Source of the DNA: a virus
Lineage: Duplodnaviria > Heunggongvirae > Uroviricota > Caudoviricetes
Virus record (IMG/VR): IMGVR_UViG_2728369393_000007
Length of the DNA stretch: 64,000 nucleotides
Direction: 5' to 3' (one strand)
Part shown: positions 44,806-45,566 of the stretch, in pieces
Numbering within the stretch: position 1 is the stretch's first letter
Layout: each line of letters begins with the position of its first letter
Notes under the pieces: model-generated
What the model saw: only the letters and a program-made list of their open reading frames with translations
What the model was told of the DNA's origin: nothing
Databases searched by the model: none
Position numbers and translations under genes: made by a program

Positions 44806-45378
44806 TCACTGGCCTTCTGGCATACCATGAGTATTCAGGTCGTTAATCATTTCATCCAGAAGGAGTTCAAGCCCTTCTCGCCCCATGTCTGAAACAATGA
44901 AACCTTTATCTGGGTATGTAATGAGCATTTTCTGATAAAGAAACAGCGCTCTACCCATTCCTTCTGCCTCGCCGTATTTTTGAATTAAATTCCATTCAAT
45001 ATACTGCTGTAAGGCAAACCGAATGGGGCCGGGATATATCGTCATAACCCCATGCTTCCCGTTATATATTACGGCGCGATCTGTTGTTCCGTGTTCATTC
45101 GGGACATCAATTGTGCCGTTCTTGTCTTCTTCTTCGTTGATGAATGTCGTCACATACAACCATCGCCACTGGGCAACCTTCATCTCAACCGGAAGTTTTC
45201 CCAGTAATCCTGCTTCGTCAGCTTGCGCGAGACACTGAAGGATACGTAAACCTCGCACATTAGGAGTATCGAATTCTCCAGCATCCAGACGGCGTATGGC
45301 GTCGTGATAATCAATAGTCATACTGCCTGTTTGTATACCATTGGCTGTTGCTTCAGCCTGGAATTCAGCGTATTGCAT
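44806..45378 (-). CDS. hypothetical protein
   Basis: 190-aa ORF, 5 nt downstream of the 60-aa ORF; no recognised motif. Confidence 0.45.
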   Translation of the reverse strand: MQYAEFQAEATANGIQTGSMTIDYHDAIRRLDAGEFDTPNVRGLRILQCLAQADEAGLLGKLPVEMKVAQWRWLYVTTFINEEEDKNGTIDVPNEHGTTDRAVIYNGKHGVMTIYPGPIRFALQQYIEWNLIQKYGEAEGMGRALFLYQKMLITYPDKGFIVSDMGREGLELLLDEMINDLNTHGMPEGQ

Positions 45379-45383
45379 GAAAT

Positions 45384-45566
45384 TTATTCCTCATCTTCAT
45401 CCGCTGGTGCAATAACGTCATATCCTGCCTTTTCTGCAATAAACAGGAATGTTGAAAGATTTCCTACAAATTCATCGTCATGAACATGACGAATTAATAT
45501 TACTTTCCCGTTTTTGATGGTCAGCAATACTCTGGTTTGTTCGTGTTCTGCTGTTTTCTGATGCAT
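45384..45566 (-). CDS. hypothetical small protein (acidic C-terminus)
   Basis: 60 aa …VILIRHVHDDEFVG…PADEDEE. Confidence 0.4.
   Translation of the reverse strand: MHQKTAEHEQTRVLLTIKNGKVILIRHVHDDEFVGNLSTFLFIAEKAGYDVIAPADEDEE

What the first reader, a model, noticed from the sequence alone, without database searches (positions are those of the whole stretch)
44806..45566. Unannotatable 60-aa / 190-aa gene pair in the prophage B left operon
Small acidic-tailed protein followed 5 nt later by a 190-aa protein with no recognisable motif, in the region of lambdoid prophages that commonly carries exclusion or host-takeover genes. The small-then-large architecture is compatible with an antitoxin-toxin or sensor-effector pair, but nothing in the sequence proves it.
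Basis: inference. Interest (0 to 1): 0.45.

Follow-up and report, generated by a model that had tools for sequence, protein, structure and literature searches.

The report
Orphan early-operon genes of Stx-type prophage
The 60-aa and 190-aa genes are real, conserved early genes of a Shiga-toxin-type E. coli prophage with no known function, but they look like two independent accessory genes left side by side by gene loss rather than a toxin-antitoxin or sensor-effector pair.

Summary
Both ORFs exist exactly as described, on the minus strand: 45384-45566 (60 aa, tail PADEDEE) and 44806-45378 (190 aa), 5 nt apart. They lie in the PL (early-left) operon of a lambdoid Stx-type prophage at the yecE site. 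Both are under purifying selection and are "hypothetical" in every record (PHROG 340 and 1515). Neither matches Pfam, NCBIfam, PADLOC or PDB sequences. A confident AF2 model of the 190-aa protein (pLDDT 88) has no fold match in PDB or BFVD.

The pair reading is not supported. Across 34 related loci the two families belong to a mosaic seven-gene array: 37-aa ORF, c3, 60-aa family, ParE-like 72-aa, c6, 190-aa family, ORF6N/Ant. Each family occurs without the other. They are adjacent only in the reduced E. coli form, which lacks the intervening genes. The 190-aa family also sits just upstream of the primase in ~12-kb integrase/primase elements.

Best reading: independent early accessory genes. 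The 190-aa protein is probably an acidic cytoplasmic binder of a host or defence factor; this is inferred, not shown. An unannotated 37-aa gene directly precedes the pair, and the window's 190-aa allele carries a 3'-terminal frameshift. Interest is low to moderate.

The parts
44806..45378 (-). 190-aa gene (family c1 = PHROG 1515). Acidic (pI 4.7) cytoplasmic protein with an orphan alpha/beta fold. This allele has a 1-nt deletion 12 nt before the ancestral stop, which replaces the conserved C-terminal APVTH with GQ.
45384..45566 (-). 60-aa gene (family c4 = PHROG 340). Predicted beta-hairpin (12-28), helix (37-46) and acidic tail. Weak similarity to the C-terminal region of two PHROG 'anti-repressor' families.
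45569..45682 (-). Unannotated conserved 37-aa gene (family c2, MTFIKHKASHKTACLIAQHGKNHMHIACLFLRKAYGR). AGGAGG lies 7 nt before its ATG, and its stop lies 2 nt before the 60-aa ATG. It is the first gene of the tight three-gene cluster.
46717..46745 (-). PL-like sigma-70 promoter (TTGACA-17-TAATAT) next to the cI-like repressor gene. It is the likely source of the transcript that covers the cluster. No intrinsic-terminator-like site on the minus strand lies between it and the start of the cluster; the one minus-strand site within the cluster (45177-45162, 6-bp stem, inside the 190-aa gene) is weak and terminator-like sites are no commoner than in shuffles.
   Evidence: consensus match only
45764..46698 (-). 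Upstream operon context: a double-HTH regulator (245-aa ORF; 233 aa in RefSeq) and a 66/80-aa ORF that resembles its N-terminal part.
43199..44752 (-). Downstream operon context, a separate mosaic module: unannotated 35-aa TM ORF, 62-aa membrane protein, SPFH/Band-7 lipoprotein and DUF5406 protein. The same module follows the 190-aa gene in phiP27.

Best explanation
The 60-aa and 190-aa genes are two independent, non-essential accessory genes of the early-left (PL) operon of a lambdoid Stx-type prophage. With an overlooked 37-aa gene they form the reduced version (c2-c4-c1) of a mosaic seven-gene array: c2, c3, c4, ParE-like c10, c6, c1, ORF6N/Ant. This array is shared by temperate phages of Enterobacterales. 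The two genes are adjacent here because the genes that separate them in fuller arrays are absent. All three genes are co-transcribed from PL on induction or infection and are probably translationally coupled. Inferred, not shown: the 190-aa protein is a soluble acidic protein with an orphan fold that acts early by binding or modifying a host or competitor factor, in the way host-takeover and anti-defence proteins do. That would explain why phages and integrase/primase elements both keep it in their early operons. Also inferred: the 60-aa protein is a stand-alone copy of a small protein-interaction domain that is also found at the C-terminus of Bro-network 'anti-repressor' proteins.
For: Shown: the genes are real and under purifying selection. 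They lie in the operon between the cI-like repressor/PL and xis-int. SD motifs sit inside the preceding coding sequence, with 2-nt and 5-nt spacers. The array and its presence/absence patterns were mapped over 34 loci. The neighbour immediately upstream of the 190-aa family varies: c4, c6, c10, DUF4222 or another gene. The family occurs in early operons of lambdoid/HK97-like phages and directly upstream of TOPRIM-DUF927/D5 primases in AntA + DUF4222 + Icd-like elements. The family is consistently acidic (median pI 4.8, median net charge -12, 55 members). It has a small set of nearly invariant polar or aromatic residues: D37, R72, W73, R120, E128, Y148 and a C-terminal His. The AF2 model is confident, with no TM segment or signal peptide apparent. 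No known fold or family matches. The 60-aa protein hits the C-terminal part of PHROG 'anti-repressor' families 4792 (1.6e-5) and 2379 (4.8e-4).
Against: No experiment or homology links either protein to any target, so the 'binder of a host or defence factor' step is inference from position, charge and distribution only. The conserved D/R/E/Y/H set could equally mark an enzyme active site. Within E. coli the c2-c4-c1 block is inherited as a unit: 275 of 287 genomes with a match carry at least 80% of the block, and the 60-aa and 190-aa lineages co-diverge. A physical interaction in this lineage is therefore not excluded. The window allele lacks the family's conserved C-terminal His and may be impaired.
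Confidence: 0.55

Rival explanations
1. One reading: the 60-aa protein is an antitoxin or sensor and the 190-aa protein is its toxin or effector, forming a two-gene exclusion or abortive-infection module.
For: Small-then-large order, a 5-nt spacer (4-nt ATGA overlap in another E. coli lineage), an acidic tail on the small protein, constant linkage within E. coli prophages, and parallel divergence of the two genes.
Against: Each family occurs without the other, and in the full arrays they are separated by one or two genes. There is no toxin, antitoxin or defence-family hit. The small protein is not predicted to have an RHH, HTH, AbrB or Phd fold. No promoter of its own was predicted. Frameshifted 190-aa genes occur without loss of the element. 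In integrase/primase elements the 190-aa family sits beside unrelated small genes.
Confidence: 0.07
2. The 60-aa protein is the antitoxin-like partner of the ParE-like 72-aa gene (c10) that directly follows and overlaps it in fuller arrays. In this prophage the toxin has been lost and the 60-aa gene remains as an orphan antitoxin, possibly protecting against ParE-like toxins of incoming relatives. The 190-aa gene is unrelated to it.
For: In 12 loci c4 is immediately followed by c10, with an overlap of roughly 25 nt in HMM-envelope coordinates (29 nt where gene calls are available). c10 matches Pfam PF24732 'ParE-like toxin domain' at 3e-19, above the curated cut-off. The 60-aa protein is small with an acidic tail. 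The window has no c10.
Against: c10 occurs without c4 in AsXd-1, Phytobacter and Yersinia, where c3 directly precedes it. c4 occurs without c10 in Salmonella and in all the E. coli reduced arrays. c10 is only 72 aa and has no sequence match to solved ParE/RelE structures. c4 has no antitoxin-type DNA-binding fold and no match to PaaA2, ParD or Phd structures.
Confidence: 0.13
3. The 190-aa protein is an enzyme, for example one that modifies or degrades a small molecule or nucleic-acid signal, and not a stoichiometric binder. Its conserved D37, R72/W73, R120, E128, Y148 and C-terminal His would form an active site.
For: A sparse set of nearly invariant charged or aromatic residues stands out against only 21% mean column identity across 55 diverse members. 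The protein is predicted to have a compact globular alpha/beta fold.
Against: No catalytic family or fold match was found. A widespread allele, the one in the window, lacks the terminal His.
Confidence: 0.2

Closest known systems
PHROG 1515 and PHROG 340 (uncharacterised phage protein families)
   Same: Full-length, highly significant matches: 1.9e-92 for the 190-aa protein and 1.8e-21 for the 60-aa protein. phiP27 L06 and L07 are the earliest deposited homologues, both annotated 'unknown'.
   Different: These families carry no function, so membership says nothing about mechanism.
Accessory genes of the lambda PL operon and exo-xis/b region (kil, cIII, gam, ral, ea and orf genes)
   Same: Same genomic niche between the immunity region and xis-int, the same early expression logic, and the same small, mosaic, dispensable character (lambda biology is from general knowledge).
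   Different: There is no sequence or fold similarity to any of them. PDB sequence searches, which cover solved lambda Gam, Ea8.5 and Orf63, found nothing.
Type II toxin-antitoxin pairs, including the prophage PaaR2-PaaA2-ParE2 system of E. coli O157:H7
   Same: Small acidic gene followed closely by a larger gene in a prophage. A ParE-like gene belongs to the same array in relatives.
   Different: The two families are not consistently linked. Neither shows toxin or antitoxin homology. The ParE-like gene is absent from the window.
Bro-network 'anti-repressor' proteins (ORF6N, AntA, KilA-N, ANT and others)
   Same: The 60-aa protein weakly matches the C-terminal part of two PHROG anti-repressor families. 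The 190-aa gene is usually followed by an ORF6N/Ant gene in phages, and an AntA gene lies upstream of it in integrase/primase elements. Domain shuffling in this network is described in PMC10111431.
   Different: There is no Pfam Bro-network domain in either protein. The similarity covers about 40 residues at modest E-values.

Membership tests
Type II toxin-antitoxin pair (60 aa = antitoxin, 190 aa = toxin) | The two genes co-occur and stay adjacent across relatives | tested here: not met
   Of 34 loci, the 190-aa family lacks the 60-aa family in 8, and the 60-aa family lacks the 190-aa family in 2. In another 10 loci they are separated by 1-2 genes.
Type II toxin-antitoxin pair (60 aa = antitoxin, 190 aa = toxin) | The toxin belongs to a recognised toxin fold or family | tested here: not met
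Type II toxin-antitoxin pair (60 aa = antitoxin, 190 aa = toxin) | The antitoxin has a DNA-binding domain and an autoregulated promoter of its own | tested here: not met
   AF2 predicts a beta-hairpin, one helix and an acidic tail. No sigma-70-like site was found between 45567 and 45880 on the minus strand (consensus scan only).
Type II toxin-antitoxin pair (60 aa = antitoxin, 190 aa = toxin) | Toxicity of the large protein, neutralised by the small one | not testable with these tools
   This needs expression experiments.
ParE-like toxin with upstream antitoxin (60 aa = antitoxin of c10) | A ParE-like gene lies immediately downstream of the 60-aa gene | tested here: not met
   Absent from the window. 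Present and overlapping in 12 related loci, but c10 occurs without c4 in 4 loci.
PHROG 1515 / PHROG 340 | Significant full-length match to the family HMM | tested here: met
   1.9e-92 (residues 1-189) and 1.8e-21 (residues 2-59).
Known anti-phage defence systems (PADLOC-DB 2.0) | Match to any component model | tested here: not met
   No hit for either protein at E <= 1.
Bro-network anti-repressor C-terminal domain (60-aa protein) | Significant similarity to the C-terminal module of Ant-like proteins | tested here: inconclusive
   PHROG 4792 at 1.6e-5 and PHROG 2379 at 4.8e-4, over about 40 residues. There is no Pfam counterpart, and no fused protein was retrieved.
DUF905 (a UniRef name given to one Klebsiella homologue of the 60-aa protein) | Match to Pfam DUF905 | tested here: not met
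   None of 30 family members hits DUF905 at E <= 1.

The most novel reading that the evidence does not exclude
The 190-aa family (PHROG 1515) is a new-fold early effector shared by temperate phages and integrase/primase satellite-like elements of Enterobacterales. It would neutralise a host immunity or DNA-end-processing function through its conserved D37/R72-W73/R120/E128/Y148/terminal-His surface. The conserved 37-aa and 60-aa micro-proteins upstream would be further independent early effectors in the same 'counter-defence array'.
Probability: 0.25. Interest if true: 0.55.

Novelty: new member of a known kind. Interest (0 to 1): 0.25.

Why it matters
About 5% of complete E. coli genomes carry this block, including many O157, O26, O111, O145 and O55 STEC strains, where it lies in Stx-converting or closely related prophages. 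The block is expressed from PL, so its products appear when the prophage is induced, at the same time as Shiga-toxin production begins. A function for the 190-aa protein would add one more early phage and satellite effector with an unmatched fold. As it stands, the useful results are negative or corrective. The pair is not a TA module. The true unit includes an unannotated 37-aa gene. The window allele is C-terminally frameshifted. The '2-polyprenylphenol hydrolase' label on Klebsiella homologues has no support.

Tried and rejected
- **Family libraries.** Pfam, NCBIfam, PADLOC and PDB-sequence scans of both proteins, and of 55 and 30 diverse family members, found nothing.
- **Rfam.** No hit in 42500-48000.
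- **Literature.** Searches by accession, PHROG id, PF24732 and topic found nothing about these proteins. A satellite paper gave context only.
- **Locus search.** The search for related loci with broad alignments failed for lack of a conserved stretch. A narrower alignment worked.
- **Rejected labels.** DUF905 and '2-polyprenylphenol hydrolase'.
- **DNA mimic.** An Ocr/ArdA-like DNA mimic was considered. The family is acidic, but only moderately (net charge about -12), and no fold match supports the idea.

Full report
**Observation**

On the minus strand there is a 60-aa ORF at 45384..45566 (MHQKTAEHEQTRVLLTIKNGKVILIRHVHDDEFVGNLSTFLFIAEKAGYDVIAPADEDEE). A 190-aa ORF at 44806..45378 follows it after a 5-nt spacer. 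A GGGAG motif precedes the first ATG and a GAGGA motif precedes the second. Each motif lies inside the preceding coding sequence (read).

The window matches the chromosome of E. coli CFSAN004176 at 100% identity and many STEC genomes (O157:H7, O55:H7, O111, O26, O145) at 99.7% or more. The block is present in 287 of 5426 complete E. coli genomes, and 275 of these carry at least 80% of it. RefSeq annotates both ORFs as hypothetical proteins. They lie in a prophage integrated beside yecE/yecN/cmoA, between a cI-like repressor and xis-int. The same genes occur in deposited Stx1a-, Stx2a- and Stx2d-converting phage genomes and in phiP27, where they are L07 and L06, both 'unknown'.

A PL-like promoter (TTGACA-17-TAATAT) lies at 46745-46717 on the minus strand. 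No terminator-like site on the minus strand lies between it and the start of the cluster; one weak site (6-bp stem) lies inside the 190-aa gene at 45177-45162, and terminator-like sites are no more frequent than in shuffled sequence. Pairwise dN/dS is 0.12-0.36 for the 190-aa gene and 0.15-0.57 for the 60-aa gene.

**What the proteins are**

Neither protein has a significant match in Pfam, NCBIfam or PADLOC, or among PDB sequences. This holds when 55 diverse members of the 190-aa family and 30 members of the 60-aa family are scanned one by one or as profiles. PHROGs places them in families 1515 and 340, both of unknown function. The 60-aa protein also weakly matches the C-terminal ~40 residues of two 'anti-repressor' PHROGs.

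An exhaustive HMM search of 1.84 billion representative proteins found only 116 relatives of the 190-aa protein, so this is a small family. By the organism names in the loci and records retrieved, it is largely confined to Enterobacterales.

The 190-aa family is consistently acidic, with a median pI of 4.8 and a median net charge of -12. Mean column identity is only 21%. Even so, the family keeps G34, D37, R72, W73, R120, E128, Y148, G166 and a C-terminal His.

**Is it a pair?**

I built HMMs for the gene families that flank the 190-aa gene and scanned 34 loci. These were deposited phage genomes, E. coli, Klebsiella and Salmonella prophages, and one genome per species from Yersinia, Citrobacter, Phytobacter, Buttiauxella, Budvicia, Rahnella and others.

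The scan shows a conserved, co-directional array in the early-left operon, in this order:
- c2, a 35-37-aa protein
- c3, ~120 aa (PHROG 1737)
- c4, the 60-aa family
- c10, 72 aa, Pfam PF24732 'ParE-like toxin domain' at 3e-19
- c6, ~140 aa (PHROG 1886)
- c1, the 190-aa family
- c7, an ORF6N/Ant anti-repressor

Members of the array are present or absent independently:
- Complete arrays occur in Klebsiella phages, Escherichia phage CharmingMan and Citrobacter.
- c4 is missing but c1 is present in Aeromonas phage AsXd-1, Phytobacter, Yersinia and 'Enterobacterales CwR94'.
- c1 is missing but c4 is present in Salmonella.
- c1 occurs without any other array member in the primase-containing elements described below.

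The window and all the E. coli Stx/phiP27-type prophages carry the minimal form c2-c4-c1. c4 and c1 touch only in this form, because c10 and c6 are absent. A maximally sensitive c4 HMM search found no cryptic copy in the loci that lack it.

Frameshifted c1 genes occur in phi467 and in several database clusters. None of this fits an antitoxin-toxin or obligate sensor-effector pair. Linkage and parallel divergence within E. coli are expected for neighbouring genes in one mosaic block, and they do not show that the proteins interact.

**Other contexts of the 190-aa family**

In Buttiauxella, Rahnella and an unnamed Enterobacterales genome, c1 lies directly upstream of a Zn-ribbon/TOPRIM/DUF927 or D5-type primase-helicase. 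The same is true in 12-23-kb circular records filed as plasmids. In the loci where the upstream region could be examined, c1 lies downstream of an AntA anti-repressor and a DUF4222 protein, and in the circular records also an Icd-like protein; in the circular records an integrase is also present. This resembles the gene content described for enterobacterial PICI/P4-like satellites (PMC10111431), but I did not test satellite status.

c1 is thus the most widely shared member of the array. It is kept in the early operons of two kinds of mobile element.

**How it most likely works**

These steps are shown:
- The genes are co-transcribed from PL and tightly packed.
- c1 is soluble and acidic, with an orphan fold and a handful of invariant polar residues.
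- c1 is distributed independently of its neighbours and is dispensable in some lysogens.

These steps are inferred:
- c1 acts early after induction or infection, by binding or modifying a host or competitor factor, as lambda Gam, Kil, cIII, Ral and modern anti-defence proteins do from the same genomic niche.
- c4 is a stand-alone version of a small interaction module that also occurs at the C-terminus of Bro-network proteins.

I put about 0.8 on the architectural conclusion (independent accessory genes, reduced array) and about 0.35 on the binder mechanism. The overall figure is 0.55.

The rivals are:
- c1 is an enzyme (0.2).
- c4 is an orphan antitoxin of the absent ParE-like c10 (0.13). c4-c10 adjacency in 12 loci supports this. 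c10 without c4 in 4 loci, and the lack of any antitoxin-type fold, weaken it.

**Additional findings**

- A conserved 37-aa gene (45569..45682, minus strand) has a consensus AGGAGG 7 nt upstream of its ATG, and its stop lies 2 nt before the 60-aa ATG. Its dN/dS is 0.06-0.22. It is present in 28 of the 34 loci and in 35 phage records, including Fels-1 and Cronobacter ENT39118. RefSeq does not annotate it in the matching record examined here, and it has no PHROG, Pfam or NCBIfam family.
- The window's 190-aa allele has a 1-nt deletion 12 nt before the ancestral stop codon. This replaces the family's conserved ...PEAPVTH terminus with ...PEGQ. The allele is very common, seen on at least 1000 contigs.
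- Downstream, a separate module is shared with phiP27: an unannotated 35-aa TM ORF, a 62-aa membrane protein, an SPFH lipoprotein and a DUF5406 protein.

**Novelty and verdict**

The genes belong to catalogued but uncharacterised phage families, in a genomic niche known to be full of such genes. The specific hypothesis that made the finding interesting is not supported. What remains is an orphan-fold early protein with a clear conserved-residue signature and a phage-plus-satellite-like distribution. That makes it a reasonable but not exceptional candidate for functional work. Interest is 0.25.

Noticed in passing
window 45569-45682 (-): Unannotated, conserved 37-aa gene (MTFIKHKASHKTACLIAQHGKNHMHIACLFLRKAYGR) with a consensus AGGAGG RBS. 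Its stop lies 2 nt before the 60-aa start. dN/dS is 0.06-0.22. It is found in 28 of 34 related loci and 35 phage records (including Fels-1 and Cronobacter ENT39118). No PHROG, Pfam or NCBIfam family covers it.
   Followed up: partly
window 44806-44822 (-), 3' end of the 190-aa gene: A 1-nt deletion relative to phiP27 and other alleles shifts the frame 12 nt before the ancestral stop. This replaces the family-wide C-terminal APVTH (His nearly invariant) with GQ. The allele is widespread in STEC.
   Followed up: yes
window 43199-44752 (-): Membrane module downstream of the pair: unannotated 35-aa TM ORF (44645-44752), 62-aa membrane protein (PHROG 1130), SPFH/Band-7 lipoprotein (43609-44436) and DUF5406 protein. 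The same module occurs in phiP27, where the SPFH protein is labelled 'putative serine protease'. It could be an exclusion or membrane-remodelling module.
   Followed up: no
L003 2874-3092, L033 3682-3903 and 10 other related loci (absent from the window): A 72-aa gene matching Pfam PF24732 'ParE-like toxin domain' (3e-19) lies between the 60-aa and 190-aa families in fuller arrays and overlaps the end of the 60-aa gene. In loci without the 60-aa gene, the ~120-aa c3 gene directly precedes it.
   Followed up: partly
L003, and phage records MK416014, MN166823, MK422455, MK433579, MK416019: Klebsiella phage homologues of the 190-aa protein are annotated '2-polyprenylphenol hydrolase / flavodoxin oxidoreductase'. 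No family or fold search supports that name.
   Followed up: yes
window 45764-46698 (-): The 66/80-aa ORF after the double-HTH regulator cross-matches the PHROG of that regulator's N-terminal part, and the regulator cross-matches the small ORF's PHROG (families 4587 and 4836). It looks like a stand-alone copy of the regulator's non-HTH N-terminal domain.
   Followed up: no
L036 (NZ_CP148430.1, 12 kb), L037, L021, L023, L024: Homologues of the 190-aa protein sit directly upstream of TOPRIM-DUF927/D5 primase-helicase genes. Where the flanks could be seen, these elements also carry AntA, DUF4222, Icd-like and PerC-like genes, and the circular records carry an integrase. Some of them are deposited as small 'plasmids'.
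   Followed up: partly
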